From assembly GCA_036388895.1 (NCBI GenBank), contig DASVQY010000054.1:77050-101049 (forward strand): a DNA stretch of 24,000 nucleotides, given 5' to 3'. Below are positions 1,743 to 23,683 of the stretch, one piece after another. Numbering within the stretch: position 1 is the stretch's first letter; each line of letters starts with the position of its first letter. A program made the translations under genes and the position numbers. This DNA comes from Pyrinomonadaceae bacterium (GTDB lineage: Bacteria; Acidobacteriota; Blastocatellia; Pyrinomonadales; Pyrinomonadaceae). The notes beneath the pieces are model-generated. The model made no database searches, was not told the DNA's origin, and saw only the letters and a list, made by a program, of their open reading frames with translations.

Positions 1743-1960
1743 GCAAAATCATCACTTAGTTGCTTTAAACTTTAATCAACCGCGAAATTTTCCACACTCA
1801 AAAGCGTGATATTTCACAGACAGCTTTCTCATCTCAAAATTTAAATACTGATCAAACGTCTTCAACTCTCGATAACTCCAATGTTTACAGTAAATAAATT
1901 TCTTTCTGCATCTTGTCGGCTGACGGCACGATCATTGCGACTGCTAAGAATTTGAAAGTC

Positions 1961-2023: not shown

Positions 2024-3238
2024 ATGCAAAAGGAATTTATGAGCAATAATACTTCAAAACCAGGCGCCAATCGGGCACTGTTTTTTTCAACCACGGCTTT
2101 CGCGGTTTCATTTGCCGTTTGGGGATTGATCGCCGCACTGGCGCCGACTTTTACGCAGCTTTACAACCTTACCGCTACCGAAAAAAGTTTAATGATCGCT
2201 GTTCCGGTTCTGCTCGGTTCAATCGGCAGACTCGCCGCAGGAATGCTCGCCGACCGTTTCGGCGGGCGTTTGACGTTTGCCGCTCTGCTGTTTTTTGCGG
2301 CAATTCCGGCAATCGCCATTGGTTTTTCGACCAGCTTTACACAGCTGTTGATTTTCGGTCTTCTGCTCGGAATTGCCGGAACGACTTTTCCGGTCGGCGT
2401 CGGATTTACCTCGAAATGGTTTCCGCCGGAGAAGCAGGGAACGGCGCTCGGCGTTTACGGAATGGGAAACATCGGGCAGTCGGTTGCGGTTTTCGGCGCT
2501 CCGGTACTCGCGTTATGGCTCGGAGATTGGCGGACAGTTTTCTTTGTTTTCGCCGCTGTAGCGATCATCTGGGGAGTTTTATATTACCTTTTCGCCAGAG
2601 ATGCCGCCGCAACCGCGCAGCCGAAAACATTGGCGGAGAATTTAAACGTCTTGAAACGTTCGAAGCTCGCCTGGATTTTGTCTCTATTTTATTTTCTCAC
2701 TTTCGGCGGATTCGTCGCACTCGCGCTTTATATGCCGACTTTTCTGCGCGAAATCTTTAACCTCTCGCCGACCGACGCGGGCGCGAGAACTGCCGGATTT
2801 GTCATTTTGGCAACACTTATGCGCCCGGTCGGAGGCATTTTAGCCGATAAAATGGGCGGCGCTAAGGTTTTGGTTTTTGTTTTCGTCGCAATCGCCGCTC
2901 TGTCTCTGCTCTTGAGCTTTTCGACGATCACCCTTTTCACCGTCGGAGCTTTGGGCTGCGCGGCGGCTTTGGGACTCGGCAATGGCGCGATCTTCAAACT
3001 CGTGCCGCAGTATTTCCCGAAAGAAACCGGAACGGTGACCGGTTTGGTCGGTGCCTTCGGCGGATTGGGCGGATTTTTCCCGCCGCTCGAACTCGGTTTG
3101 GTCAAAGACGCAACCGGTGCCTACACCATCGGCTTTGTTTTGCTCGCGGCGTTCGCTGTTGTATGTCTGGCTGTAAATTATTTCACTTTTCTGCGCGGTT
3201 CCGTCGAAGAAAGAGCAACCGCCGCTGTGAATGCATAA
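2024..3238 (+). CDS. narK: MFS transporter, nitrate/nitrite porter (NarK/NasA, NNP family)-like
   Basis: 404 aa with about 12 hydrophobic segments. It carries the MFS motif GMLADRFGGR and Gly-rich YGMGNIG / GLGNGAIF motifs resembling NNP signature motifs. An alternative start at ATG 2039 has AAGGAA upstream. Neighbouring RIC, MobA and Crp-family genes fit this context. Confidence 0.7.
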   Translation: MQKEFMSNNTSKPGANRALFFSTTAFAVSFAVWGLIAALAPTFTQLYNLTATEKSLMIAVPVLLGSIGRLAAGMLADRFGGRLTFAALLFFAAIPAIAIGFSTSFTQLLIFGLLLGIAGTTFPVGVGFTSKWFPPEKQGTALGVYGMGNIGQSVAVFGAPVLALWLGDWRTVFFVFAAVAIIWGVLYYLFARDAAATAQPKTLAENLNVLKRSKLAWILSLFYFLTFGGFVALALYMPTFLREIFNLSPTDAGARTAGFVILATLMRPVGGILADKMGGAKVLVFVFVAIAALSLLLSFSTITLFTVGALGCAAALGLGNGAIFKLVPQYFPKETGTVTGLVGAFGGLGGFFPPLELGLVKDATGAYTIGFVLLAAFAVVCLAVNYFTFLRGSVEERATAAVNA

Positions 3239-10215: not shown

Positions 10216-10612
10216 AACATTAATTTATGTGTTTTCGCGAAAACGAATCGGGCTATTTATTAATGCCCGAAACAGCGGAAAACTTACAATTATTTTCTCG
10301 CAATTAATTACACAAAACATTGTTATTTTGATTATTACTCGAAACAGCCACAAATTAAGTAAATTGATTAAATTAACCCGAGTGAAAGTACCTGCTATTA
10401 TCTGCGGACTCAGTTTTATGTCAAGAAACATTTCCTTTTGTCCGGCGAATCATCATGTGCCGGTTTTTACAAGCCGTTTTCGTAATCTTAGCCGTTGAAA
10501 AACCTATGTGCCTTGTTTCAGTATTCTTAAATTTAAAAAATCTGGCAAATTCGCCCGCTTTCGGCGAATCTTCGAGCCTGAAGCGCCGAAGCGGTTCAAC
10601 CAGGATGTTTTC

Positions 10613-10654
10613 AAAAAAAATAAAAGCCTGGGGTTTAGTTAAAACCAAAGGCTT
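10613..10654 (-). terminator. second hairpin plus long T-run (minus strand) downstream of tRNA-Pro
   Basis: The minus strand reads AAGCCTTTGGTTTtaacTAAACCCCAGGCTT followed by TTATTTTTTTT. The stem is imperfect. Confidence 0.5.
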
Positions 10655-10696
10655 CGCTGTTGGTAACTGAGTAGTATTAGCTGGGAAATTAGGGGC

Positions 10697-10730
10697 GGAA
10701 AAAGAAAAGAGGCATCGAAATGATGCCTCT
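10697..10730 (-). terminator. rho-independent terminator of tRNA-Pro
   Basis: The minus strand reads AGAGGCATC-atttc-GATGCCTCT followed by TTTCTTTTT. Confidence 0.75.
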
Positions 10731-10747
10731 AAACTACTGTAAATAAA

Positions 10748-10824
10748 TGGTCGGGGCGAGATGATTTGAACATCCGACCTCACGGTCCCGAACCGTGCGC
10801 TCTACCAGGCTGAGCCACGCCCCG
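10748..10824 (-). tRNA. tRNA-Pro (anticodon CGG), CCA encoded
   Basis: The reverse complement folds as a cloverleaf: CGGGGCG-TG-GCTC-AGCCTGGTA-GAGC-G-CACGG-TTCGGGA-CCGTG-AGGTC-GGATG-TTCAAAT-CATCT-CGCCCCG-ACCA. The anticodon loop is ttCGGga. Confidence 0.92.
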
Positions 10825-13634: not shown

Positions 13635-16600
13635 TTACCGGGCGGCGAGCGGCAGCGCGAGCAGATGTCCGAGATAAACGAAGTAAATTTTTGCTTCCTT
13701 CTCGTCTACCCAGATGTCCATACCGCTTAAATTTATATCGGGGATTTTAATGAGCGGCTGAAAACGGAAAGTTTTTTCGTCGTATCGCCCGATGTTCGTT
13801 TCGTTTGTTTTTTTCTCGTAAATGGCTGCCCAAAATTCACCCGGATTTTCGGTCGGCTGCAAACGGCGAACGGATTGCTGCCACAGCGGGCGAAATTCTC
13901 CTTTGATCAATTGCACAGCTTCGGTGTTTGCGTCGAATAAATAATACTCCGGCGTTTTCGGACTCGGATTGGGTTTGATCTTGCCGCGCCGCCGCAAAGC
14001 CCAGCTTTCTTCGGGACTTATCTCTTGGGCAGCCTCGATAGGCGCCCCGCTCGTTCGCAGGAAATGACCTTTAGCCCGATAAAGCAGAACCTTATTGTGC
14101 GAGCCGATGAACGCAATCGGGTAGAAGGCGTCCGACGGCAAGACATTGATTTTGTATTCTCTGCCGGTTTGCAGATTTATTCTGACAACCGTTTTCGGCT
14201 CGCTCCAATCCGTTTCGGCTTTCGTCGCCACTGCCCATTTACCGTCGGCGGTGATAATCGGGTTAGCGTAAAGTCCTTCTTTGAATTTAACCGGGTTTGA
14301 AGACCCGTTTATTTTATACAAACCGCCTTCGTAAGGTTCAGCGACGCGGATTTCGACGTTTCCGGCGCGAACCTGCCATTCCGGCGTCGAATAGTTGATG
14401 ACGGATTGAAAATTTTCCGCGTTTCGGTTAAAAAGCGAAAATTCCGACGGCTGCGCAGCCGAGGCGCTGAGCTTGCCGTTTTGCAAATTTCGCCAGGACA
14501 AATGCGCGCCAGCCATTTCTTGGCGTTTTTTCATAAACGCGGCGTATTGAGCTTGTCGCTGGTCGGAGTTTTCTTCATCGATTTCGATATTGTAAAGGCT
14601 TTTTTGCAGCTCCAGCAATTCTTTTTCGATGTCTTTCTGTTTGAGTTTATCTTCGATCAAAAGGCGCAGATCAGCGTCTTTTTTCCAAACCGCGCGGGCT
14701 TCGAGATTCTTATCCGCCAGCAATACTTCCAAACCTTTTACTTTGTCGGAGAAGCGATACTTAAGCGCGAGATTTTCATTTTTGAACGATTCGAAATAGT
14801 CGAATAATTCTTTGACGACGTTTTTTTCGTTGTACGTCGAGCGCAGAAAAACTCTTCGACCACCGCTGCGCCCGAACATCACGAATTCGCTCGATTGGCA
14901 TTCTTCACAGGAAGAATTGTTAAAGGATGGAAGCGCGTCTATTTTGTTTGCCAACAAAAAGTTATAAAAATTCTCGAATTCTTTCGCCGTGAGAATTCTC
15001 TCCCAGTAACGCGCCACATCTTCTTCGTATGTATAAACGATTTTGTCTTTATAGACGCGAATTATCTGCTGACCGCTTGCCGCGTCGGGCAAAGTAGCGT
15101 AAACAGCCGTAAGCTCGGGGACGGCTTTGATTTCAGAGCGCAATTTCTCTTCGTTTTTCTTTAAATTCGAAAAGGAAATTGACCAGTAGCCGATTCCGTT
15201 TACGCTTTCAAAAAGAGCGTCGAGATTTTTTCTTTCGATTGCTTTTTCTTCGGGCACAAACGCCATACGCGCGCCGAGAATCAAAGCCTCGTTCGGGTGT
15301 CTGGCTAAAACGAGCGCGCGAGCCTGCGGGCTGTCTTCGGATTCGAGCCATCTTTCAGCCGCGAGCGCTAAAAGTTTATTTGAATCGTTCGTAAATTCGG
15401 CTACTTCGGCAACCGGCAATTTGGCGCGAAGCAGCCGGGCGCAGCCGAGCATGGCTATGCGAGCTTCCGCGTCAGTTCCGCGCAGAATTCCCGCATACTC
15501 GCTTTCTTCTTCGATCAAACAAGCGCCGATGCCGCGCGTTGTTCCGCTCGAACTGCGCAGCATCGCAAGCTCGTTCGGAACTTTCTCACGGAAATCCTTG
15601 CGTTTGGCTAAAGCGCTTAAAATCGTTTCGATGTCGGCTTCGCCGATTCGTATCTGCCGCAGAATTTCAGCGAAAATCGCCGCGCCTTTCCATTTCTGCA
15701 TTATTTCCGCAAGAGCAGCGGCGACCGGCGGCTTTGTTCGCCGCAAAACTTTTAACCGCTCGACCGCCCGAACGACAAGACCGTCGCTCGGCTCTTCCTG
15801 TTCGCCCACGGTTTTTCCGATACTGATTTGCAGCGGAAGAGTTTTTGTTTCAGCCTTTTCTTCCGGTTCTTCCTCTTCGTGACTGTCACCGTAGTACCCG
15901 TATTGAAAAGCGTTAAGTTCGGCTAAACCTTCGGGCGTCGAAATCATTGTCGCGTAAGCCTCAAGCGCCGCCATCTGCTCATCGTCGGATAAACCTCCGC
16001 TGGCGATTAATGCCTGAACGATTACCCCTCGCGTTTCGGGATTCATTTCTTTTGAAAGAGCGAACTTTAAAGCCGGAACCGCGCGCGAATCTTTGTATCT
16101 GACGAGCGCGCTGATCGCCGCGAAACGGAATTCTTCCTCGTTCATTACAATCGCGATTAAGCTCGGAATGCTTTCCGGCAAGTCAACTTCGGCGAGAGCG
16201 GAAATCAATTGTCCTCTTTCGGAGTTTCGCGACGGTTTCGCCCAATTCGGATCGGAAAGCCACGGAAGCAAAGCCTGTAAAACTTCTTTATTTTTACCGT
16301 CAAATGAATCCATCAAGTTTCGCGCCGCTGCCGAACGAACGGCGAAATTGTCGCTTTTGACGAGTTCGATCATTTTTTCGATCCATTTTTTCGGCGGCGA
16401 CATAGAAATCAAAGTCGTCAAACCCGTGTTGCCGTTATCTTGAATCGTCAATAAAGTTTCGTCGGCGAGCAGGGAAAGATACCATTCGTCGCGCCCTTTC
16501 CAATCGCCGCTCGCCGCCAGCGCGTCCATCGCTAAATCGCGCTGCGCCCAAGCTGCCGTTTTATTCTCGACAATATCTTGCAGCATTCTTCGATATTTTT

Positions 16601-17309
16601 CCGCCGCGCTTTCGTCCTCCGTATCAATCGCGCGTTTATATCGAACCCATCTCGCCAAAGTTTGTGAATAAGGCTGCGACGAATCATTTTCCAAACGCTC
16701 GACAATCGGTCGGGCGGAATTCCAGTCAATTTTTGCCAGAGCCAGCAGCACGTCCTGCTGATTGTTCGGCACGTAATCATTTTGATCCTTTGTTTTCTGA
16801 GCTTCACGAACCAGTTCGGCGACAAAATGATTGCTGTTATGTTTCAGCCATTCCTTAAGGCGCAGTTGCGTGTAAGGTTCCATTTCATTTTCTTGCTGTA
16901 AATTGTCGTAGAACCTCTTGACGGTATCTGAAGTTCTGGCATCGGAAGGCAAAACCGAAAGGTAATTTACGAGTTTTTTCGGATCATTTTCACAGGCTTC
17001 GATAATTCTTTCGATTGTTTTGGCGGAAGGTTTTAATTGATAATTCAGGCGGTTGTAGCTTTCATTCTGCTTCGCCCAGTAATCGAGCAAATCTTCTATC
17101 GGCGCGTCGTCCGGCGGAATATTTTCATCGCTGTAGAAATCCTCCGTGCGTTCTTTTACCTTTCGTTCTTTGCCGTCTTCGTTCGGTGGCGCGGGCGCGG
17201 GCAAATCCAATAGTTCTTTTAGTAAAATGTTTGAATTAACCGTTTGAGCTTGAATTGTCAGTGATAAGAATAAGGTTGAGAGAAATATCTTGAGAAAAAA
17301 CCGGTGCAT
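13635..17309 (-). CDS. large secreted HEAT/ARM-like repeat protein with beta-rich C-terminal domain (function unknown)
   Basis: ATG 17309 has AAGGAG 8 nt upstream and gives signal peptide MHRFFLKIFLSTLFLSLTIQAQT. HEAT-like units are present (FAVRSAAARNLMDS; FRFAAISALVRYKDSRAVPALKFAL; ETRGVIVQALI). The C-terminal ~250 aa is strand-rich and TolB/propeller-like. No catalytic motif recognised. Confidence 0.75.
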   Translation of the reverse strand: MHRFFLKIFLSTLFLSLTIQAQTVNSNILLKELLDLPAPAPPNEDGKERKVKERTEDFYSDENIPPDDAPIEDLLDYWAKQNESYNRLNYQLKPSAKTIERIIEACENDPKKLVNYLSVLPSDARTSDTVKRFYDNLQQENEMEPYTQLRLKEWLKHNSNHFVAELVREAQKTKDQNDYVPNNQQDVLLALAKIDWNSARPIVERLENDSSQPYSQTLARWVRYKRAIDTEDESAAEKYRRMLQDIVENKTAAWAQRDLAMDALAASGDWKGRDEWYLSLLADETLLTIQDNGNTGLTTLISMSPPKKWIEKMIELVKSDNFAVRSAAARNLMDSFDGKNKEVLQALLPWLSDPNWAKPSRNSERGQLISALAEVDLPESIPSLIAIVMNEEEFRFAAISALVRYKDSRAVPALKFALSKEMNPETRGVIVQALIASGGLSDDEQMAALEAYATMISTPEGLAELNAFQYGYYGDSHEEEEPEEKAETKTLPLQISIGKTVGEQEEPSDGLVVRAVERLKVLRRTKPPVAAALAEIMQKWKGAAIFAEILRQIRIGEADIETILSALAKRKDFREKVPNELAMLRSSSGTTRGIGACLIEEESEYAGILRGTDAEARIAMLGCARLLRAKLPVAEVAEFTNDSNKLLALAAERWLESEDSPQARALVLARHPNEALILGARMAFVPEEKAIERKNLDALFESVNGIGYWSISFSNLKKNEEKLRSEIKAVPELTAVYATLPDAASGQQIIRVYKDKIVYTYEEDVARYWERILTAKEFENFYNFLLANKIDALPSFNNSSCEECQSSEFVMFGRSGGRRVFLRSTYNEKNVVKELFDYFESFKNENLALKYRFSDKVKGLEVLLADKNLEARAVWKKDADLRLLIEDKLKQKDIEKELLELQKSLYNIEIDEENSDQRQAQYAAFMKKRQEMAGAHLSWRNLQNGKLSASAAQPSEFSLFNRNAENFQSVINYSTPEWQVRAGNVEIRVAEPYEGGLYKINGSSNPVKFKEGLYANPIITADGKWAVATKAETDWSEPKTVVRINLQTGREYKINVLPSDAFYPIAFIGSHNKVLLYRAKGHFLRTSGAPIEAAQEISPEESWALRRRGKIKPNPSPKTPEYYLFDANTEAVQLIKGEFRPLWQQSVRRLQPTENPGEFWAAIYEKKTNETNIGRYDEKTFRFQPLIKIPDINLSGMDIWVDEKEAKIYFVYLGHLLALPLAAR

Positions 17310-17574
17310 TGTGAAAACTCCTTTGCGTAAATGCTTGCGCAATTATAAATGTTTGCTGTTGTAAATCAAGAACAAATTTTTACTAAAGACAAATGCACGA
17401 AGTTATTTTTATTTGTCTGTTAATTTAATCGCTTTATAGTTTTACAAATAGGAAAGTACTGGCAGCAAAGATATTTCGCGGTTTTTTAGAAAAATTCGTA
17501 AGGCAGGATAGGCAAATCGGAATTTGAAGCTGTTAACGGAATGAGGTTTTAATCTGCTCGCACGAAAATAAATA

Positions 17575-17625
17575 AAAAATAAAGCCTTGTCGAAAGTAAA
17601 ATCAACAAGGCTTTATTTTTTTATT
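17575..17625. terminator. rho-independent terminator after the radical-SAM gene (A/T runs on both sides)
   Basis: ATAAAGCCTTG-tcgaaagtaaaatcaa-CAAGGCTTTAT is flanked by AAAAAA and TTTTTT. It lies 10 nt downstream of the stop at 17635. Confidence 0.75.
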
Positions 17626-17634
17626 CAGGAACGT

Positions 17635-19668
17635 TTATGCCGAAGCCGTTCCCGATTTAGCTTTCTTTTCGCGTTTTATTCCGCCGATTTGAACGAGATT
17701 GTCACCTTTGATTTGATTTTTCTCCATCACCATTTGCTGATAAAGCTTGCGCATCATCTGCATTTCTTCGGCAGCGGTTTTAGGTCCTTCCATTTCCGGT
17801 TTGTTCGGACGCGAAAGATCAACTTCGTTCAAAATCAAATTGTGCGTTTTATCGCCCAATTCGACTTCTTTGCCGCGCGCGAAAACTTCGTGACGACCGT
17901 GTTCTTTATACCACTGCGCGACGGTCGCGTTCTGGTGCATATGCTCGATGATGTTTCTCCAGCCGATACCCGTATTGTAAGCGCAGAACGAAATTTCGCC
18001 TTCCTGCGTTCCGTAGGGAATAATGCACATTTCCGTGCGGCGGAAATCGTAATTGAACAAATCTTGGAACCACATACCGGCGATGAAAAGGAAGTTCCAC
18101 GGGTCTTTGCGGCGTTTTTCGATGTCTTCTATAGTGCGCGTGCCGTCAACTTTTCCGTAGTTTTTGCCCGACAAACCAAACGATTTATCGAATTTGGCAA
18201 AGATGCCGCCGAGCGTTAAACTTTCCGGCGCGCCGTATGGGTTGTAGTTTTTCAGAAGAGCCAAGCCCATCATAATATTGGAAAACCATTTTCCGCGAGC
18301 CGTGTCGGTGATGTGCTTCATATCTTCGACGAGTCCGGGAATGTGCAGAAATTCCGGCACCGGAGCCATTTCTTTGGTTTCCTTGTTGATCATCACGGCG
18401 GTTCCGACGCCGCAGTTCGGGTGGCAACCGCAGGAAACTTGTCCCCAATCGGCTTCCGGTCCGTGAACGAGATCAGCGAAATCGGCGAACGCGCCCATCA
18501 ATGAAAGCGGGAACCAATCGCGCGTCGGTTCAGTGATTCCGACTTGTTTCTGAACGTCCTGAGCCAGATGCGAAAGCGTATAACGCTGTTGTAATCGGCG
18601 CTGTTCGGTGATGTGCTCGTCGCGACCCGTAAATGAAACGGGTTGAAATGACACAAATGAAATTTTCTTCGGGTTTTCCAAAGCAAAACGAACAATCGTT
18701 CCGACCTGATCGTTATTGACGCCGTTGACCAGCGTCGTGACGAGAACGATGTCAACGCCCGCTTCGTGCAAATTGTTGATGGCGCGAAGTTTCACGTCGA
18801 ACAAGTTGCCGATTTGACGGTGCGAGTTGGCGTCGTTGCCGATTCCGTCAAACTGCAGATAAACGAAACGAAGACCGGCTTCGGCAGCTTCGCGGCAGAA
18901 TTCTTTGGATTTAGCGAATTCGATTCCGTTTGTCGCCGCCTGCACCGAATTGTAACCGACTTTTCGGGCGTAACGAATAGCTTCGATAAAGTACGGCGAA
19001 AGTGTCGGTTCGCCACCCGAGTATTGTACGGACATTTGGCGGCGCGGTTTGATCGAAATCGCGTTATCGAGAATTTCTTTAACGTCTTCCATCGAAAGCT
19101 CGTGAACGAATCCGACCTGATTGGCGTCCATAAAACACGGGTCGCACATCATATTGCAGCGGTTCGTCAAGTCAACCGTCAGAACTGCGCCGCGTCCGTA
19201 TTTAATCGTTGAAGAACCGTGATTGTGCAGTTTTTCGTCGTTATGAGATTGAATGTCTCGACCGGGAAAATTTGCTTCGATATGTTTTAAGAACTTAGAG
19301 TCAATCGCCATTAAGTCTTCAAAATGCCCGTGCTCGGGACAATCCTTAATCATCCAGATTTGACCGTCGCGTTCGATAATCTGGGCTTTAATTTCGCCGA
19401 CCTTTTCGTTAATGAGCGTTGAAACGTCGCGCTTTCCAGCCAAAATTTCTTCGCGCGCTTCGATAACGCAATTCGGGCAGAGCGAATCTGTCGTGCGCGG
19501 AAAGCCGAGCGTCGGTTTTGATTTCTGCCAAGATTTAAGCAGTGGTTTGTCCGACCATTTCGGCGTAAATGAAGGATTCGGTTTATATTGATTTACGGCT
19601 TTGATGGCTTTGAATAAGCCACTCGCCATATACGTCAATCCCTTTTCAAAATGTTTTACAGGTCTCAT
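17635..19668 (-). CDS. radical SAM enzyme with tetraether lipid synthase (Tes / GDGT-MAS, MJ0619-type)-like architecture
   Basis: GGAGAG RBS. An N-terminal CPNC is followed about 40 aa later by CPEHGHF (a rubredoxin/zinc-knuckle pair). The radical-SAM motif is TVDLTNRCNMMCDPCF (CX3CX2C), followed by GGEPTL. The large C-terminal domain carries extra Cys (SCGCHPNCGVG, FCAYN). Assignment is from remembered family architecture, not a search. Confidence 0.6.
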   Translation of the reverse strand: MRPVKHFEKGLTYMASGLFKAIKAVNQYKPNPSFTPKWSDKPLLKSWQKSKPTLGFPRTTDSLCPNCVIEAREEILAGKRDVSTLINEKVGEIKAQIIERDGQIWMIKDCPEHGHFEDLMAIDSKFLKHIEANFPGRDIQSHNDEKLHNHGSSTIKYGRGAVLTVDLTNRCNMMCDPCFMDANQVGFVHELSMEDVKEILDNAISIKPRRQMSVQYSGGEPTLSPYFIEAIRYARKVGYNSVQAATNGIEFAKSKEFCREAAEAGLRFVYLQFDGIGNDANSHRQIGNLFDVKLRAINNLHEAGVDIVLVTTLVNGVNNDQVGTIVRFALENPKKISFVSFQPVSFTGRDEHITEQRRLQQRYTLSHLAQDVQKQVGITEPTRDWFPLSLMGAFADFADLVHGPEADWGQVSCGCHPNCGVGTAVMINKETKEMAPVPEFLHIPGLVEDMKHITDTARGKWFSNIMMGLALLKNYNPYGAPESLTLGGIFAKFDKSFGLSGKNYGKVDGTRTIEDIEKRRKDPWNFLFIAGMWFQDLFNYDFRRTEMCIIPYGTQEGEISFCAYNTGIGWRNIIEHMHQNATVAQWYKEHGRHEVFARGKEVELGDKTHNLILNEVDLSRPNKPEMEGPKTAAEEMQMMRKLYQQMVMEKNQIKGDNLVQIGGIKREKKAKSGTASA

Positions 19669-20358
19669 AAATATTTCTCTCCGGTATAATAAATACTATT
19701 TTGCGTCAATTTAAATATTGGGAAGTATTAGAACTTGATTCATCTTAAATAAACATCAAATTCCAACAAGCAATAAGTGTGCCGCAGATTTATGTTCGTG
19801 ACTAGTGAGAATTTCCACTCAAATACGCAGATTGTTAGTAAGAATATAAATACATTGAGCTTCAAAATGACACGTAATCGCTGTTAAAGAAGGTAATGTT
19901 TACTTATGACACAGAAGGCTCGGTTGTTAGTGTAGAACGTTTTAGTATAGATTGGTTCTCGTTTCGACTGTTTAAGCCACTGCTTAATAATTTTCATAGT
20001 TGTGGAAAACTGTTAAGCTACAATATATTCTGCATTTTTCTAAAAAACAGCGAGTTTATATTCTTATTTTACGTTTTATTAGTTTTTTGTTCACCTTGTG
20101 TTCACTTTTAAGCAGTTGATTTAACTCTTACTTGAAGAATAAATTGCAAACCATTGAAAAAGAAACAGATAGATGAAATAAAAAAGATCTTTACTTCGCA
20201 ATTTCGTTATGCTAAATTCACTTTCACCTTCAAGGGAAAATTAGTTAAAGGACGGACGGTTATTTAACTAATAAATATATTCGATAGCTTTCTTCGTTGA
20301 ATCACATAACAAAAATAAAGCAGTATTTTTAGATTTTTGTTTTCTAACAAACGTAAAT

Positions 20359-21747
20359 ATGTCTATACGCTTCGGAACATCCGGTTGGAGAGCAATAATC
20401 GCGGATGATTTTACATACGAAAATGTCCGTGTCGTCACCGAAGCAATATGCAGCTATTTGAAAAATAATTCAAGCGGCGAACAGAAATTAATCGTCGGAC
20501 ACGATACGCGTTTTATGGGCGAAAATTTCGCCGCCGTTGCCGCCGAGATTGCCAAACGAAAAGGTTTTCGCGTTCTGCTTTGCGAAAGCCCGACTCCGAC
20601 ACCGACCATTTCACACGCGATTCGGAACGAAAAAGCAGCCGGCGGCATAAATTTTACGGCTTCGCATAATCCGCCCGAGTATCAAGGAATAAAATTTTCG
20701 ACGGCGGATGGCGCTCCGGCTTTGCCCGAGGTTACCAAACAGATCGAAGAATTTATCCGAAATAATGCGAAAGCAAACGAGGCTGAAGGCGGATCAATTG
20801 AAGTTTATGACGCGCGACCCGCTTATCTCGATGATCTGAAAACTAAAATTCGCTTTGACTTAATCGCCGGTGCGAAAGGCAGATACGCTTACGACGCGCT
20901 TTGGGGAACAGGTCGCGGTTATCTGGACAGGATTTTGCGCGACAATGGTTTAGAAGTCGAGACGATTCACGATTGGCGCGACGTGACATTTGGCGGAAAA
21001 TCGCCGGAACCCGGCGAAGATCATCTCGATGAATTAAAAGAGGCGGTCAAAACCAAGCGATTAGTTCTCGGACTTGCGACAGACGGAGACGCCGACAGAT
21101 TCGGAATAATTGACAGCAACGGCGAGTTTATTACGCCTAATCAATTAGTCGCTCTTTTAACGGATTATTTAGCGGAATCGCGCGGTTGGACGAACGGAGT
21201 CGCGCGTTCGGTCGCTACGACGCATTTAATTGACAGAGTTGCGGCAAATCGCGGCTTAAAGCTTTACGAAACGCCGGTCGGTTTCAAATATATCGGCGAA
21301 TTGATAAATAAAGACGAGATTATTATCGGCGGTGAAGAATCTGCGGGACTTTCGATTCGCGGTCATTACCCGGAAAAAGACGGAATTTTAGCTTGTCTTT
21401 TAGCTGCCGAAGCGGTCGCGGCTCGCGGCGTAAGTTTGACTGAACAGCTAAGAGATTTGACAAATCGGGTCGGGAATCTCGAATCGGGCAGAATCGGCGT
21501 TAAATTAACCGCAGAAATTGTCCAAAATTTGAAGGAAATACTTGCGAAAGAGCCGTCAGAAATCGGCGGACGGAAAATTGAAAAAATAAATAGAATGGAC
21601 GGCGTAAAATTCATTTTCACGGACGGAAGCTGGATGCTGATGCGTCCTTCGGGAACCGAGCCTTTGGTCAGAATTTACGCCGAGACAGAAAATACGAAAG
21701 ATTTGGAGGTGCTGCTTGAGCAAGGTCGTCGCTACTTATTGGACTAA
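20359..21747 (+). CDS. phosphoglucomutase/phosphomannomutase-family alpha-D-phosphohexomutase
   Basis: FGTSGWR at the N-terminus, active-site loop TASHNPPEYQGIKF, metal loop ATDGDADR, sugar loop GGEESAG and phosphate loop RPSGTEP. Confidence 0.9.
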   Translation: MSIRFGTSGWRAIIADDFTYENVRVVTEAICSYLKNNSSGEQKLIVGHDTRFMGENFAAVAAEIAKRKGFRVLLCESPTPTPTISHAIRNEKAAGGINFTASHNPPEYQGIKFSTADGAPALPEVTKQIEEFIRNNAKANEAEGGSIEVYDARPAYLDDLKTKIRFDLIAGAKGRYAYDALWGTGRGYLDRILRDNGLEVETIHDWRDVTFGGKSPEPGEDHLDELKEAVKTKRLVLGLATDGDADRFGIIDSNGEFITPNQLVALLTDYLAESRGWTNGVARSVATTHLIDRVAANRGLKLYETPVGFKYIGELINKDEIIIGGEESAGLSIRGHYPEKDGILACLLAAEAVAARGVSLTEQLRDLTNRVGNLESGRIGVKLTAEIVQNLKEILAKEPSEIGGRKIEKINRMDGVKFIFTDGSWMLMRPSGTEPLVRIYAETENTKDLEVLLEQGRRYLLD

Positions 21748-23367: not shown

Positions 23368-23419
23368 TTGCTTCTCACGAGTTTTTCCGAAAACTCGTGA
23401 AAATCGGTTCTTTTTCAGT

Positions 23420-23610
23420 TGTAAGTGTACGAAGTCCCGCTTCTTGAGGCGGGAAAGGGGAAGCCGGGTGAAAATCCCGCGCGGTCGCGCCACAGTGAAA
23501 GCCATTTTGGATTTTAGGTTTTAGATTCGGATTAATAGAAAATGTTTATTTAATCCAAAATCAGAAATCCAAAATTGGAAAGTCTGGAAACCTGCCTTTG
23601 TACATTGCGC
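23420..23610 (+). promoter_or_regulatory. cobalamin (B12) riboswitch
   Basis: The core GGGAAAGGGGAAGCCGGGTGAAAATCCCGCGCGGTCGCGCCACAGTGA matches the conserved GGGAA...GGTGAAAATCC...CGCCAC.GT core. The B12 box AGTCTGGAAACCTGCC lies at 23581-23596. P1 candidates are TGTAC (23426-23430) and GTACA (23600-23604). A long AT-rich peripheral hairpin spans 23504-23575. Confidence 0.85.
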
Positions 23611-23683
23611 CGTCAGAATGTTTCGCGTAAAAGCATTCGAGGCTCGCGTCAGCGTGTTTTTTGTATCTCCTTTTGGTGAAAAA

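What the first reader, a model, noticed from the sequence alone, without database searches (positions are those of the whole stretch)
17635..19668. Bacterial homologue of tetraether lipid synthase (Tes/GDGT-MAS): candidate membrane-spanning lipid synthase
This 677-aa radical-SAM protein combines three elements. An N-terminal CPNC is followed about 40 aa later by CPEHGHF, forming a knuckle pair. The AdoMet cluster motif is CNMMCDPC. A long C-terminal domain carries additional conserved-looking cysteines (SCGCHPNCGVG, FCAYN, EMCIIPYG). I recall this layout from the archaeal MJ0619-type enzyme, which couples two lipid tails by C-C bond formation to make GDGTs. Bacterial homologues are the main candidates for the orphan brGDGT / membrane-spanning lipid pathway, but direct biochemical proof in bacteria is scarce. 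The gene appears monocistronic: it has its own terminator and a 690-bp AT-rich upstream region. It also ends in a ~90-aa Lys/Glu/Met-rich tail that I do not associate with the archaeal enzymes.
Basis: partly seen in the sequence, partly recalled or inferred. Interest (0 to 1): 0.7.

Follow-up and report, generated by a model that had tools for sequence, protein, structure and literature searches.

The report
Tes-like lipid synthase missing one cluster
This soil acidobacterial gene encodes a real relative of the archaeal enzyme that welds two lipid tails into a membrane-spanning lipid, but it belongs to a distinct bacterial branch that has lost one of the enzyme's three iron-sulfur clusters, and its activity is still untested.

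Summary
A 677-aa radical-SAM ORF (17635..19668, minus strand) carries every quoted motif, a strong terminator, a 690-bp AT-rich leader and a Lys/Glu/Met-rich tail.

The protein is a full-length homologue of Tes/GDGT-MAS:
- NCBIfam Tes E 8e-98.
- PDB 7TOL E 3e-64.
- AlphaFold model versus 7TOL/7TOM: target-normalised TM 0.87-0.88.

It keeps the rubredoxin-like site, the radical-SAM cluster, the C-terminal cluster with its labile Met, and the substrate-proximal Tyr. All four ligands of the N-terminal [4Fe-4S] cluster are gone, and an invariant His triad occupies that loop. It scores below NCBI's Tes cutoff (328 vs 450 bits). It falls in a bootstrap-supported non-canonical bacterial group, some of whose members have also lost the C-terminal cluster.

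The variant is 68-92% identical across uncultured Acidobacteriota, Gemmatimonadota and other MAGs. No isolate was found carrying it. In Blastocatellia it sits behind a conserved sigma-54 promoter with upstream repeats.

The most likely function is tail-to-tail coupling of iso-branched lipid chains (iso-diabolic-acid-type lipids), confidence about 0.55. The general idea was published in 2022 and is still unproven. This is a new variant of a known kind.

The parts
17635..19668 (-). CDS of the 677-aa Tes-like radical SAM protein (stop codon 17635-17637)
   Evidence: ORF list. Pfam and NCBIfam hits. PDB 7TOL E 3e-64. Model pLDDT 85 with target-normalised TM 0.87-0.88 to 7TOL/7TOM.
19594..19668 (-). 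N-terminal extension: predicted amphipathic helix (residues 3-25). It lies upstream of everything aligned to Tes. A possible interfacial membrane anchor (inference).
   Evidence: Helix 3-25 with pLDDT 79-91. Hydrophobic moment 0.53-0.55. The Tes HMM match starts at residue 60.
19306..19503 (-). Rubredoxin-like zinc-ribbon domain (residues 56-121). Ligands are C64, C67, C110 and H113. Knuckle spacing is X42, against X20 in MJ0619.
   Evidence: Pfam PF23545 E 5e-14. C33/H36 of MJ0619 align to C110/H113. The ligands are invariant in 76 clade members, apart from one Ser at C67. MJ0619 motif from Lloyd 2022.
19201..19245 (-). Remodelled loop (residues 142-156, SHNDEKLHNHGSSTIK) in place of the [4Fe-4S]N CX3CX2C...H motif. 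It contains the invariant H142, H148 and H150.
   Evidence: C73/C77/C80/H83 align to gap/H150/S153/K156. No Cys lies between residues 110 and 171. The three His are invariant in 76 sequences. Low model confidence here, pLDDT about 60.
18682..19170 (-). Radical SAM core (residues 167-329), with the CX3CX2C motif C171/C175/C178 at 19135..19158
   Evidence: Pfam PF04055 E 1e-20. Aligned to C98/C102/C105 and F106 of MJ0619.
17971..18456 (-). C-terminal auxiliary-cluster domain (residues 405-566). It holds C419, M532, C548 and C562 (equivalents of the [4Fe-4S]C ligands and labile Met), Y552 (Tyr459 equivalent), and the additional invariant C413, C415 and H416.
   Evidence: Alignment to C338, M439, C455, C470 and Y459. 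Invariance in the clade. Role of this cluster from Lloyd 2022.
17638..17913 (-). C-terminal tail (residues 586-677). Residues 586-620 are structured, a helix spans 632-650, and the Lys-rich end 657-677 is disordered.
   Evidence: Composition. Length comparison with the family. Conservation 0.8, then 0.53, then 0.25 along the tail. pLDDT profile.
17574..17621 (-). Intrinsic terminator hairpin immediately after the stop codon, flanked by an A-run and a U-run (could act in both directions)
   Evidence: Scan. Fold dG -30.2 kcal/mol, z -8.7, with 0 of 200 shuffles as stable.
19770..19783 (-). Sigma-54-type -24/-12 promoter GGCACACTTATTGC, about 100 nt upstream of the ATG
   Evidence: Two exact matches in the window against 0.16 expected. 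The motif is present on the sense strand upstream of the orthologue in 37 of the L001-L043 loci and in 0 of L044-L080. Background is 0.034 per kb per strand.
19868..19913 (-). Two upstream TGTGTC-type half-sites (TGTGTC 19913..19908 and CGTGTCA 19874..19868) at about -130 and -91 from the -24 element. Candidate enhancer-binding-protein sites.
   Evidence: Recurrent half-sites at about -93 and -132 in relatives. A strict inverted repeat occurs in 13 of 38 loci, against 0.005 expected per locus. Sequence.
19677..19682 (-). Ribosome-binding site GGAGAG, 8 nt before the ATG
   Evidence: Read directly from the sequence.
19669..20358 (.). 690-bp AT-rich divergent intergenic region shared with the phosphoglucomutase/phosphomannomutase gene (20359..21747, +)
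   Evidence: No Rfam family is matched here. Only short blocks are conserved among relatives.

Best explanation
The gene encodes a Tes-family radical-SAM lipid C-C coupling enzyme of a bacterial variant type. It most likely joins the terminal carbons of two iso-branched C15-type chains of membrane glycerolipids, tail to tail, to give iso-diabolic-acid-type membrane-spanning lipids in an uncultured Pyrinomonadaceae bacterium.

Proposed mechanism, by analogy with GDGT-MAS:
1. The RS cluster (C171/C175/C178) cleaves SAM.
2. The 5'-deoxyadenosyl radical abstracts H from a terminal carbon of a lipid tail.
3. The tail radical is parked on a sulfide of the C-terminal [4Fe-4S] cluster (C419/C548/C562, with labile M532).
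4. A second SAM-derived radical on a second tail attacks that carbon and forms the C-C bond.

Shown here: family membership at fold and sequence level; retention of the RS cluster, C cluster, Met, Tyr and rubredoxin-site residues; loss of the N-terminal cluster; and an autonomous transcription unit with a sigma-54-type promoter and a terminator. Inferred: the substrate, the product and the mechanism. Also inferred is that electron delivery works without [4Fe-4S]N, perhaps through the rubredoxin site alone or through a new His-based site.
For: - Full-length Tes homology: NCBIfam NF045702 gives 328 bits, E 8e-98, model positions 2-483 of 486. PDB 7TOL gives E 3e-64, or 4e-68 with a profile.
- The AlphaFold model (pLDDT 85, pTM 0.86) superposes on 7TOM/7TOL with target-normalised TM 0.87-0.88 and rmsd about 3.2 A over 547-551 alignment columns. 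The next hit reaches TM 0.45.
- Catalytic residues are conserved and invariant in 76 clade members: C171/175/178, F179, Q342, S345, C419, M532, C548, Y552 and C562. The roles of these residues in MJ0619 come from Lloyd 2022.
- GDGT-MAS itself binds ester-linked bacterial phospholipids.
- The type genus of the family has more than 40% membrane-spanning iso-diabolic acid and ether lipids. Subdivision-4 strains share iso-diabolic acid.
- No Mss homologues were found in Acidobacteria.
- The protein is under very strong constraint: 68-92% identity across phyla in more than 590 genomes.
- In 7 loci of other phyla, a SPASM/twitch-like radical-SAM gene lies about 120 bp away. Published bacterial gms genes cluster with tes in a similar way.
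Against: - The score is below NCBI's curated Tes cutoff (328 vs 450), while canonical representatives score 463-593.
- All four [4Fe-4S]N ligands are lost.
- The protein lies in a non-canonical group separated from MJ0619-type Tes with 100% bootstrap support. Some members of that group, including Terriglobus roseus WP_014786616.1, have lost the C-cluster Cys and the Tyr. Function has therefore diverged within the group.
- No lipid or ether-lipid genes lie in the window or 10 kb beyond it. Synteny is conserved only within Blastocatellia.
- None of 360 listed clade members comes from a named isolate. No lipid phenotype can therefore be tied to this variant.
- Published screens found Tes homologues in only 3 of 14 iso-diabolic-acid-producing Acidobacteria.
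- No bacterial Tes homologue has been validated experimentally.
- R210 of MJ0619, a 5'-dA contact, is Q285 here.
Confidence: 0.55

Rival explanations
1. It is a Tes-fold radical-SAM enzyme that acts on lipid tails but does something other than intermolecular tail-to-tail coupling. Examples are intramolecular macrocyclisation only, cross-linking or cyclisation of already coupled chains, or another terminal C-H functionalisation.
For: The catalytic C cluster and Tyr are retained, but the protein sits in a separate group below the Tes equivalog cutoff. It has clade-specific features: the invariant C413/C415/H416, the His triad, the N- and C-terminal extensions and R210Q. GDGT-MAS itself makes both macrocyclic archaeol and GDGT. 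The family of lipid radical-SAM enzymes is functionally diverse.
Against: No residue difference found here points to a specific alternative chemistry. The whole set of residues implicated in the coupling mechanism is intact.
Confidence: 0.2
2. The non-canonical group has moved to a non-lipid or unknown substrate, so the resemblance to Tes is ancestry only.
For: Sister types in the same group lack the C cluster and Tyr459, for example the T. roseus type. There is no lipid gene context. No isolate links the gene to a lipid phenotype. Lloyd et al. note bacterial homologues in organisms not known to make biphytanyl chains.
Against: Our clade, unlike those sisters, keeps every catalytic residue invariant. 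The full Tes fold, including the C-terminal domain that forms the lipid pockets, is retained. The clade occurs in lineages whose cultured relatives are rich in iso-diabolic acid.
Confidence: 0.17
3. It is the pterin methylase that database names suggest (7,8-dihydro-6-hydroxymethylpterin dimethyltransferase, HMPTM, class D radical-SAM methylase).
For: JGI names and the Pfam domain name Zn_ribbon_HMPTM carry this label.
Against: The label derives from the original annotation of MJ0619. Lloyd et al. could not reproduce that activity and replaced the annotation with GDGT-MAS on structural and biochemical grounds. Methanopterin biosynthesis is not expected in Acidobacteria; that point rests on my own knowledge.
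Confidence: 0.01
4. It is a member of the TrsS radical-SAM (seleno)protein family, or a decaying or inactive paralogue.
For: The second-best NCBIfam hit is TrsS, at 216 bits.
Against: The TrsS score is far below its 490-bit cutoff, below the Tes score, and covers only residues 91-377. The ORF is intact and 68-92% identical across phyla with invariant catalytic residues. That pattern is incompatible with decay.
Confidence: 0.02

Closest known systems
GDGT-MAS / Tes of Methanocaldococcus jannaschii (MJ0619; PDB 7TOL, 7TOM)
   Same: Same overall four-domain fold (target-normalised TM 0.87-0.88). Also shared are the rubredoxin-like Cys3His site, the CX3CX2C RS cluster, the C-terminal [4Fe-4S] ligands plus labile Met, the substrate-proximal Tyr, and the 5'-dA contacts F, Q and S.
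   Different: - Only 32% identical.
- All four [4Fe-4S]N ligands are replaced and the loop is shortened, with an invariant His triad.
- Rubredoxin knuckle spacing is X42, not X20.
- About 55 extra N-terminal residues include an amphipathic helix, and about 80 extra C-terminal residues are present.
- R210 is Q here.
- The host is a bacterium with ester-linked iso-fatty acids rather than ether-linked isoprenoids.
Canonical bacterial Tes homologues proposed for brGDGT or tetraester synthesis (Ca. Koribacter versatilis, Ca. Solibacter usitatus; Zeng 2022, Halamka 2022, Chen 2025 as cited)
   Same: These are bacterial members of the same radical-SAM family and are candidates for coupling iso-C15 chains. 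They are likewise unproven biochemically.
   Different: They are reported at 40-42% identity to archaeal Tes, which resembles the canonical representatives that keep all four metal sites and pass the 450-bit cutoff. Our protein is 32% identical to MJ0619 and lies in the other bipartition. I could not obtain those two sequences, so this comparison is indirect.
Terriglobus roseus DSM 18391 WP_014786616.1 type (representative P0133)
   Same: It belongs to the same non-canonical group (100% bootstrap) and is 40% identical. It also lacks [4Fe-4S]N and shares the conserved extension after the last Cys motif.
   Different: It has also lost the C-cluster cysteines (positions equivalent to C419, C548 and C562 are A, S and S) and the Tyr (V). 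It cannot use the cluster-parking mechanism. Our protein keeps all of these residues.
Mss, the membrane-spanning lipid synthase of Thermotoga maritima and Thermoanaerobacter ethanolicus
   Same: Mss is the only bacterial enzyme shown to couple fatty-acyl tails into diabolic or iso-diabolic acids. It is also a radical-SAM enzyme with a proposed Tes-like architecture. The reaction predicted for our protein is the same.
   Different: Mss is a different radical-SAM family. It has been found only in anaerobes and is reported absent from acidobacterial genomes. No Mss sequence was available here for a direct comparison.
TrsS radical SAM (seleno)protein (NCBIfam NF045646)
   Same: Related N-terminal and RS regions score 216 bits over residues 91-377.
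   Different: The score is far below the 490-bit cutoff, and there is no match to the C-terminal half.

Membership tests
Tes / GDGT-MAS (tetraether lipid synthase; NCBIfam NF045702 equivalog) | Radical SAM core with a CX3CX2C [4Fe-4S]RS motif | tested here: met
   C171/C175/C178 align to C98/C102/C105. Pfam PF04055 E 1e-20.
Tes / GDGT-MAS (tetraether lipid synthase; NCBIfam NF045702 equivalog) | N-terminal rubredoxin-like mononuclear Fe site, Cys3His (C9-X2-C12...C33-X2-H36) | tested here: met
   C64-X2-C67...C110-X2-H113. Pfam Zn_ribbon_HMPTM covers residues 56-121. C33/H36 align to C110/H113. The first knuckle is covered by the Pfam and NCBIfam models only, not by the PDB local alignment. 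Spacing is X42 instead of X20.
Tes / GDGT-MAS (tetraether lipid synthase; NCBIfam NF045702 equivalog) | N-terminal auxiliary [4Fe-4S]N cluster ligated by C73, C77, C80 and a conserved His | tested here: not met
   The aligned positions are gap, H150, S153 and K156. No Cys lies between residues 110 and 171. All 16 canonical representatives with the motif keep C, C, C and H.
Tes / GDGT-MAS (tetraether lipid synthase; NCBIfam NF045702 equivalog) | C-terminal auxiliary [4Fe-4S]C cluster (3 Cys plus labile Met439), the site of the C-S intermediate | tested here: met
   C419, C548, C562 and M532 align to C338, C455, C470 and M439, and are invariant in the clade. Actual cluster binding is not testable here.
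Tes / GDGT-MAS (tetraether lipid synthase; NCBIfam NF045702 equivalog) | Tyr459 next to the substrate's terminal carbon, strictly conserved in archaeal homologues | tested here: met
   Y552 aligns to Y459 and is invariant.
Tes / GDGT-MAS (tetraether lipid synthase; NCBIfam NF045702 equivalog) | Whole-protein HMM score at or above the curated cutoff (450 bits) | tested here: not met
   328.2 bits. Canonical representatives score 463-593. The nearest clusters, P0121 and P0127, score 299 and 414.
Tes / GDGT-MAS (tetraether lipid synthase; NCBIfam NF045702 equivalog) | Overall four-domain fold of 7TOL | tested here: met
   Foldseek E 3e-36, target-normalised TM 0.87-0.88, rmsd 3.2-3.3 A over 547-551 alignment columns, from a model with pLDDT 85.
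Tes / GDGT-MAS (tetraether lipid synthase; NCBIfam NF045702 equivalog) | Phylogenetic placement with the biochemically validated enzymes | tested here: not met
   Neighbour-joining tree: the query falls in a bipartition separate from the MJ0619-containing canonical group, with 100% of 200 bootstraps. This is a distance method only, and the representatives carry no taxon labels.
Tes / GDGT-MAS (tetraether lipid synthase; NCBIfam NF045702 equivalog) | Catalyses Csp3-Csp3 coupling of two lipid tails | not testable with these tools
   This needs expression or in vitro assays. No bacterial homologue had been validated as of 2025.
Mss (bacterial membrane-spanning lipid synthase) | Sequence homology to T. 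maritima or T. ethanolicus Mss with its conserved blocks | not tested
   No Mss sequence or profile is available in the tools. The literature reports no Mss homologues in Acidobacteria.
TrsS radical SAM (seleno)protein (NF045646) | HMM score at or above 490 bits over the full model | tested here: not met
   215.7 bits, covering model positions 12-296 of 441 only.
Class D radical-SAM methylase / HMPTM (legacy annotation) | Pterin C7/C9 methylation activity | not testable with these tools
   The prototype (MJ0619) was re-assigned to GDGT-MAS because the activity could not be corroborated.
Sigma-54-dependent promoter | -24 GG and -12 GC elements (GGCAC-N5-TTGC) with exact spacing, upstream of the gene on the sense strand | tested here: met
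   19783..19770 reads GGCACACTTATTGC. The window holds 2 matches against 0.16 expected. The motif is conserved in 37 Blastocatellia loci, against about 0.013 expected per locus.
Sigma-54-dependent promoter | Upstream activator sites, plus rpoN and an enhancer-binding protein in the genome | tested here: inconclusive
   Paired TGTGTC-type half-sites at about -93 and -132 are enriched. No rpoN or Sigma54_activat gene lies in the window or in the neighbours examined.

The most novel reading that the evidence does not exclude
This N-cluster-less, His-triad-bearing Tes variant is the missing iso-diabolic-acid (membrane-spanning lipid) synthase of many uncultured soil Acidobacteriota. On this reading neither canonical Tes nor Mss fills that role, and the variant does the same job in Gemmatimonadota and other phyla. 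It would be a gene marker for major soil sources of brGDGT-type lipids. It would also show that the [4Fe-4S]N cluster of Tes is dispensable for Csp3-Csp3 coupling, being replaced by a new His-based site or by a different electron route. In Blastocatellia its production would be switched on by a sigma-54 enhancer-binding regulator.
Probability: 0.3. Interest if true: 0.8.

Novelty: new variant of a known kind. Interest (0 to 1): 0.6.

Why it matters
Branched GDGTs and their iso-diabolic-acid precursors underpin widely used palaeotemperature and pH proxies. The enzymes that make them in Acidobacteria are still unproven. Mss is reported absent from the phylum, and stringent screens found Tes homologues in only 3 of 14 producers.

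A highly conserved Tes variant that similarity thresholds and NCBI's equivalog model partly miss could explain some of that gap. It is widespread in soil MAGs and gives a concrete gene to express and to survey.

For enzymology, Lloyd et al. state that the roles of the non-catalytic metallocofactors of GDGT-MAS are unclear. This protein is a natural deletion of [4Fe-4S]N that keeps everything else. The sister type lacks the C cluster as well. Together they form a ready-made comparative series.

The conserved sigma-54 promoter suggests that synthesis of these lipids is signal-regulated, which bears on how proxies respond to the environment.

Tried and rejected
- **FNR/CRP box.** I searched the leader for TTGAT-N4-ATCAA because low O2 induces brGDGTs in E. 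aggregans and a Crp/Fnr regulator gene lies in the window. The window held 19 matches against 14.7 expected, and nothing convincing lay upstream of the gene. Rejected.
- **Rfam.** No RNA family is matched in the 690-bp leader.
- **First AlphaFold run.** A shallow alignment (68-94% identical sequences) gave pLDDT 46 and was unusable. The second run, with 29-94% identical sequences, worked.
- **AFDB50 fold search.** I wanted organism names from it, but the library was not available.
- **Search for isolates.** Two further protein-database searches, seeded with Terriglobia and Solibacteraceae members, aimed to find cultured carriers such as E. aggregans, S. usitatus or Pyrinomonas. They returned only MAG and metagenome proteins. 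A cluster look-up of members on 4-6 Mb contigs gave no isolate either.
- **Literature supplements.** The supplementary tables of Sahonero-Canavesi 2022, Zeng 2022 and Halamka 2022 were not held or lacked the per-strain data. The 2014 subdivision-4 lipid paper is not held.
- **Gene neighbourhood.** No neighbour is conserved across phyla except a second radical-SAM gene in 7 loci. No lipid genes lie in the window or the next 10 kb of the contig.
- **Other family assignments.** SPASM peptide maturase, HemN-like, MoaA and NirJ/Ahb assignments match only the RS core, at 76 bits or less. The pterin methylase label is obsolete.
- **The second radical-SAM gene.** PDB and NCBIfam searches could not show whether it is Gms.


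Full report
**1. Observation**

Every quoted motif is present: CPNC 64-67, CPEHGHF 110-116, CNMMCDPC 171-178, SCGCHPNCGVG 412-422, EMCIIPYG 546-553 and FCAYN 561-565.

Pfam finds Radical_SAM (residues 167-329, E 1e-20) and the Zn_ribbon_HMPTM domain (residues 56-121, E 5e-14). A hairpin with a 20-bp stem follows the stop codon at 17621..17574. It folds at -30.2 kcal/mol (z = -8.7, none of 200 shuffles as stable) and is followed by a U-run. The upstream intergenic region is 690 bp, and the 19501-20500 window is 33% GC. A GGAGAG ribosome-binding site lies 8 nt before the ATG. The last 92 residues contain 12 Lys, 11 Glu and 6 Met.

The window comes from a 71-kb contig of JGI metagenome 3300034781. 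The closest proteins, 88-95% identical, are labelled Pyrinomonadaceae, Blastocatellia or Acidobacteriota MAGs. There is no organism in culture to analyse.

**2. Family**

The best NCBIfam model is the Tes equivalog NF045702: 328 bits, E 8e-98, with protein residues 60-579 matching model positions 2-483 of 486. The curated cutoff is 450 bits, so the protein falls short. TrsS is second (216 bits against a cutoff of 490). SPASM, NirJ, Ahb and MoaA models match only the RS core, at 76 bits or less.

In the PDB the only strong hit is GDGT-MAS, 7TOL/7TOM. It scores E 3e-64 with the single sequence and 4e-68 with a clade profile, covering residues 92-567.

A first AlphaFold model from a shallow alignment was unusable (pLDDT 46). 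A second, from an alignment spanning 29-94% identity, gave pLDDT 85 and pTM 0.86. It superposes on 7TOM/7TOL with target-normalised TM 0.87-0.88 and rmsd about 3.2 A over 547-551 alignment columns. The next hit, SkfB, reaches only TM 0.45 and covers only the RS core.

That is not met. This is a Tes-fold protein.

**3. Metal sites**

Lloyd et al. define four metal sites in GDGT-MAS:
- A rubredoxin-like Fe site, C9-X2-C12-X20-C33-X2-H36.
- [4Fe-4S]N, ligated by C73, C77, C80 and a conserved His.
- The RS cluster.
- [4Fe-4S]C, ligated by three Cys and the labile Met439.

They also describe Tyr459 as strictly conserved next to the substrate carbon, and they implicate the C cluster in the C-S intermediate.

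I aligned the protein with MJ0619 residues 15-475, recovered from the alignment, and with full-length representatives of 50%-identity clusters. The residue map is:

| MJ0619 | This protein |
|---|---|
| C33, H36 | C110, H113 |
| C98, C102, C105, F106 | C171, C175, C178, F179 |
| Q268, S271 | Q342, S345 |
| C338 | C419 |
| M439 | M532 |
| C455 | C548 |
| Y459 | Y552 |
| C470 | C562 |
| C73, C77, C80, H83 | gap, H150, S153, K156 |

The protein has only 12 Cys, and none lies between residues 110 and 171. It therefore cannot form the N-terminal cluster.

Sixteen canonical representatives keep all four sites and score 463-593 bits on the Tes model.

In 76 orthologues from related loci, H142, H148 and H150 are invariant in the remodelled loop (SHNDEKLHNHGSS). 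C413, C415 and H416 are invariant too. The loop is the least confident part of the folded core (pLDDT about 60). Whether the His triad binds a metal is speculation.

**4. Position in the family**

An exhaustive HMMER scan of 1.84 billion cluster representatives finds only 595 clusters with E below 1e-30. The protein's own 50% cluster is represented by P0121.

Neighbour-joining trees give the following bootstrap support from 200 replicates:
- The query clade: 100%.
- The query clade with P0121: 93%.
- A non-canonical group made of the query clade, P0121, P0144, P0133, P0143, P0171 and P0138: 100%.
- That group plus P0127, against the canonical MJ0619-containing set: 100%.

All members of the non-canonical group lack the N cluster. 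P0133, P0143, P0171 and P0144 have additionally lost the C-cluster cysteines and the Tyr. P0133 is WP_014786616.1 of the isolate Terriglobus roseus DSM 18391.

At least three Tes-like types therefore exist in Acidobacteria: canonical, this one, and a type without either auxiliary cluster. Our type keeps the full catalytic apparatus.

**5. Distribution**

A scan of one genome per GTDB species found more than 590 genomes with relatives. The best 80 are 68-92% identical over the full length. They come from Pyrinomonadaceae/Blastocatellia, Terriglobia, Ca. Acidiferrales, Solibacteraceae, Gemmatimonadota, Eisenbacteria and Acidimicrobiia MAGs. About 70% identity across phyla implies very strong constraint, lateral transfer, or both.

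None of the 360 proteins listed in three database searches carries an isolate's name, and neither do members on 4-6 Mb contigs. I could not show that any cultured iso-diabolic-acid producer carries this variant. That is the main gap in the argument.

**6. Extensions**

Relative to MJ0619, the protein has about 55 extra N-terminal residues. They include a confidently predicted amphipathic helix (residues 3-25) and a highly conserved segment (residues 31-63).

It has 112 residues after the FCAYN motif, against 13-46 in canonical members. The first 35 or so of these (GWRxIxE...GRHxxxA) are shared by the whole non-canonical group and are modelled as packed helices. Residues 603-660 are moderately conserved and include a helix at 632-650. 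The Lys-rich end is variable and disordered.

Its role is unknown; membrane or partner docking is a guess.

**7. Context and regulation**

The flanking genes are:
- Upstream and divergent: a phosphoglucomutase/phosphomannomutase gene.
- Downstream: a 1235-aa HEAT-repeat protein, then S21, SurE, PCMT and a DedA/VTT membrane protein.

Further along the contig lies a nitrate/NO-type cluster: molybdopterin oxidoreductase, ferredoxin, Rieske, MFS, ScdA, MobA and Crp/Fnr. No elb, plsA/ger, agps or fatty-acid genes are present.

Synteny (SurE-PCMT-DedA) is conserved only within Blastocatellia. In relatives SurE usually lies about 500 bp downstream, so the HEAT gene is an insertion.

Aligning the leaders of relatives exposed a conserved GGCAC-N5-TTGC block. 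This is the sigma-54 -24/-12 consensus, a point that rests on established knowledge of RpoN promoters. In the window it is GGCACACTTATTGC at 19783..19770, about 100 nt upstream of the ATG. Exact matches number 2 in the window against 0.16 expected. A slightly relaxed motif lies on the sense strand within 400 nt upstream of the orthologue in 37 of the L001-L043 loci and in none of L044-L080. The background is 0.034 per kb per strand.

About 93 and 132 nt upstream of the -24 element, relatives carry TGTGTC/GACACA half-sites. A strict inverted repeat occurs in 13 of 38 loci, against 0.005 expected per locus. The window has TGTGTC at 19913..19908 and CGTGTCA at 19874..19868.

The gene is thus an autonomous unit with a promoter, a ribosome-binding site and a terminator. 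In Blastocatellia it is probably under an enhancer-binding activator. The signal is unknown. An FNR box was sought and not found above chance.

**8. Mechanism proposed**

Shown:
- The Tes fold.
- RS cluster ligands, C-cluster ligands, labile Met, Tyr and 5'-dA contacts (except R210Q) are conserved.
- The rubredoxin site is conserved.
- The N cluster is absent.

Inferred:
- The enzyme performs the GDGT-MAS reaction on bacterial lipids. Two SAM cleavages occur, the first tail radical is parked on a sulfide of the C cluster, and the second radical forms the Csp3-Csp3 bond.
- The substrates would be iso-C15-type chains, whose tails Zeng et al. describe as structurally identical to archaeal isoprenoid tails.
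- The product would be iso-diabolic-acid-type tetraesters or mixed ether/ester lipids.

Several points make this plausible. GDGT-MAS binds ester phospholipids. The type genus of the family has more than 40% membrane-spanning and ether lipids. Mss is not found in Acidobacteria. Lloyd et al. state that the roles of the other metallocofactors are unclear, so loss of [4Fe-4S]N need not abolish catalysis.

I put this at about 0.55. The rivals are a different lipid-tail reaction on the same scaffold (about 0.2), a diverged non-lipid function (about 0.17), and the legacy pterin-methylase or TrsS labels (0.02 or less each).

**9. Comparison with what is known**

Bacterial Tes homologues were proposed as brGDGT synthases by Zeng et al. 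in 2022. They reported 42% and 40% identity for K. versatilis and S. usitatus, and 32% for E. aggregans. S. usitatus is said to have two homologues. Co-occurrence data were added later. As of 2025 no bacterial homologue had been validated.

What I could not find described is this specific variant:
- Loss of the N cluster, with an invariant His triad in its place.
- The N- and C-terminal extensions.
- A separate group below the equivalog cutoff.
- 68-92% identity across phyla.
- Sigma-54 control in Blastocatellia.

The published screen used a threshold of at least 30% identity and an E-value of 1e-50 or lower. This variant is 32% identical to MJ0619, and the T. roseus type is 27% identical. Both sit at or below the edge of that screen. 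This may contribute to the report of Tes homologues in only 3 of 14 producers. That is a hypothesis, not a result.

**10. Verdict**

- Observation: confirmed.
- Interpretation: partly supported.
- Membership: it is a member of the Tes superfamily by fold and sequence. It fails two tested defining features of canonical Tes (the [4Fe-4S]N ligands and the curated score) and one placement test. I therefore file it as a new variant that probably works like Tes, not as Tes itself.
- Interest: 0.6. The open question (who makes iso-diabolic acid and brGDGT lipids, and how) is long-standing, and this gives a concrete, testable candidate plus a natural cofactor-deletion series. However, the general idea is already published and nothing here proves activity.

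Noticed in passing
window 1925..1938 (+): A second exact sigma-54-type motif, GGCACGATCATTGC, lies about 86 nt upstream of the MFS transporter gene (2024..3238). That gene is followed by an ScdA/hemerythrin (RIC) gene and sits next to molybdopterin oxidoreductase, ferredoxin, Rieske, MobA and Crp/Fnr genes. This looks like a nitrogen-regulated nitrate/NO-type cluster.
   Followed up: partly
window 23416..23613 (+): A cobalamin riboswitch (Rfam RF00174, 43.9 bits) is followed by an ORF that runs off the window end. The ORF has a lipoprotein-like signal and a BtuF/FecB-like periplasmic binding-protein sequence.
   Followed up: partly
window 10751..10824 (-): A tRNA gene (Rfam, 62 bits) overlaps the start of a mechanically listed 120-aa ORF (10421..10783), which is therefore probably spurious.
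   Followed up: no
window 13635..17342 (-): A 1235-aa protein whose only recognisable domain is a HEAT-repeat region is inserted between the Tes-like gene and S21/SurE. In most related Blastocatellia loci, SurE lies about 500 bp downstream of the Tes-like gene.
   Followed up: partly
L047:2310-3491 (also L049, L058, L066 Gemmatimonadota; L060 Terriglobia; L072 Acidimicrobiia; L079 Ca. Versatilivorator): A 393-aa second radical-SAM protein lies about 120 bp from the Tes-like gene on the same strand in other phyla, but not in the window. It has the motif NCNYGCSFC and SPASM/twitch-like C-terminal Cys residues. NCBIfam and the PDB give only generic hits. The literature reports bacterial gms (GMGT synthase, SPASM/twitch) clustering with tes, so it may be a Gms-like cross-linker.
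   Followed up: partly
protein P0133 (Terriglobus roseus DSM 18391, WP_014786616.1) and P0143, P0171, P0144: This sister type of Tes-like protein lacks both auxiliary clusters and the Tyr459 equivalent, yet is present in a cultured subdivision-1 acidobacterium. Its function cannot follow the published Tes mechanism.
   Followed up: partly
window 19896..20111 (+): A 71-aa ORF inside the AT-rich leader is called as a gene in the JGI record. It has no Pfam hit, and only short blocks of this leader are conserved among relatives. It is probably not a gene.
   Followed up: partly
protein P0127 (601 aa, 42-45% identical): This cluster is intermediate between the canonical and non-canonical groups. 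It lacks the N-cluster Cys, keeps the C cluster, scores 414 bits on the Tes model, and ends in a Cys-rich C-terminus (...CGSGCGCH).
   Followed up: no
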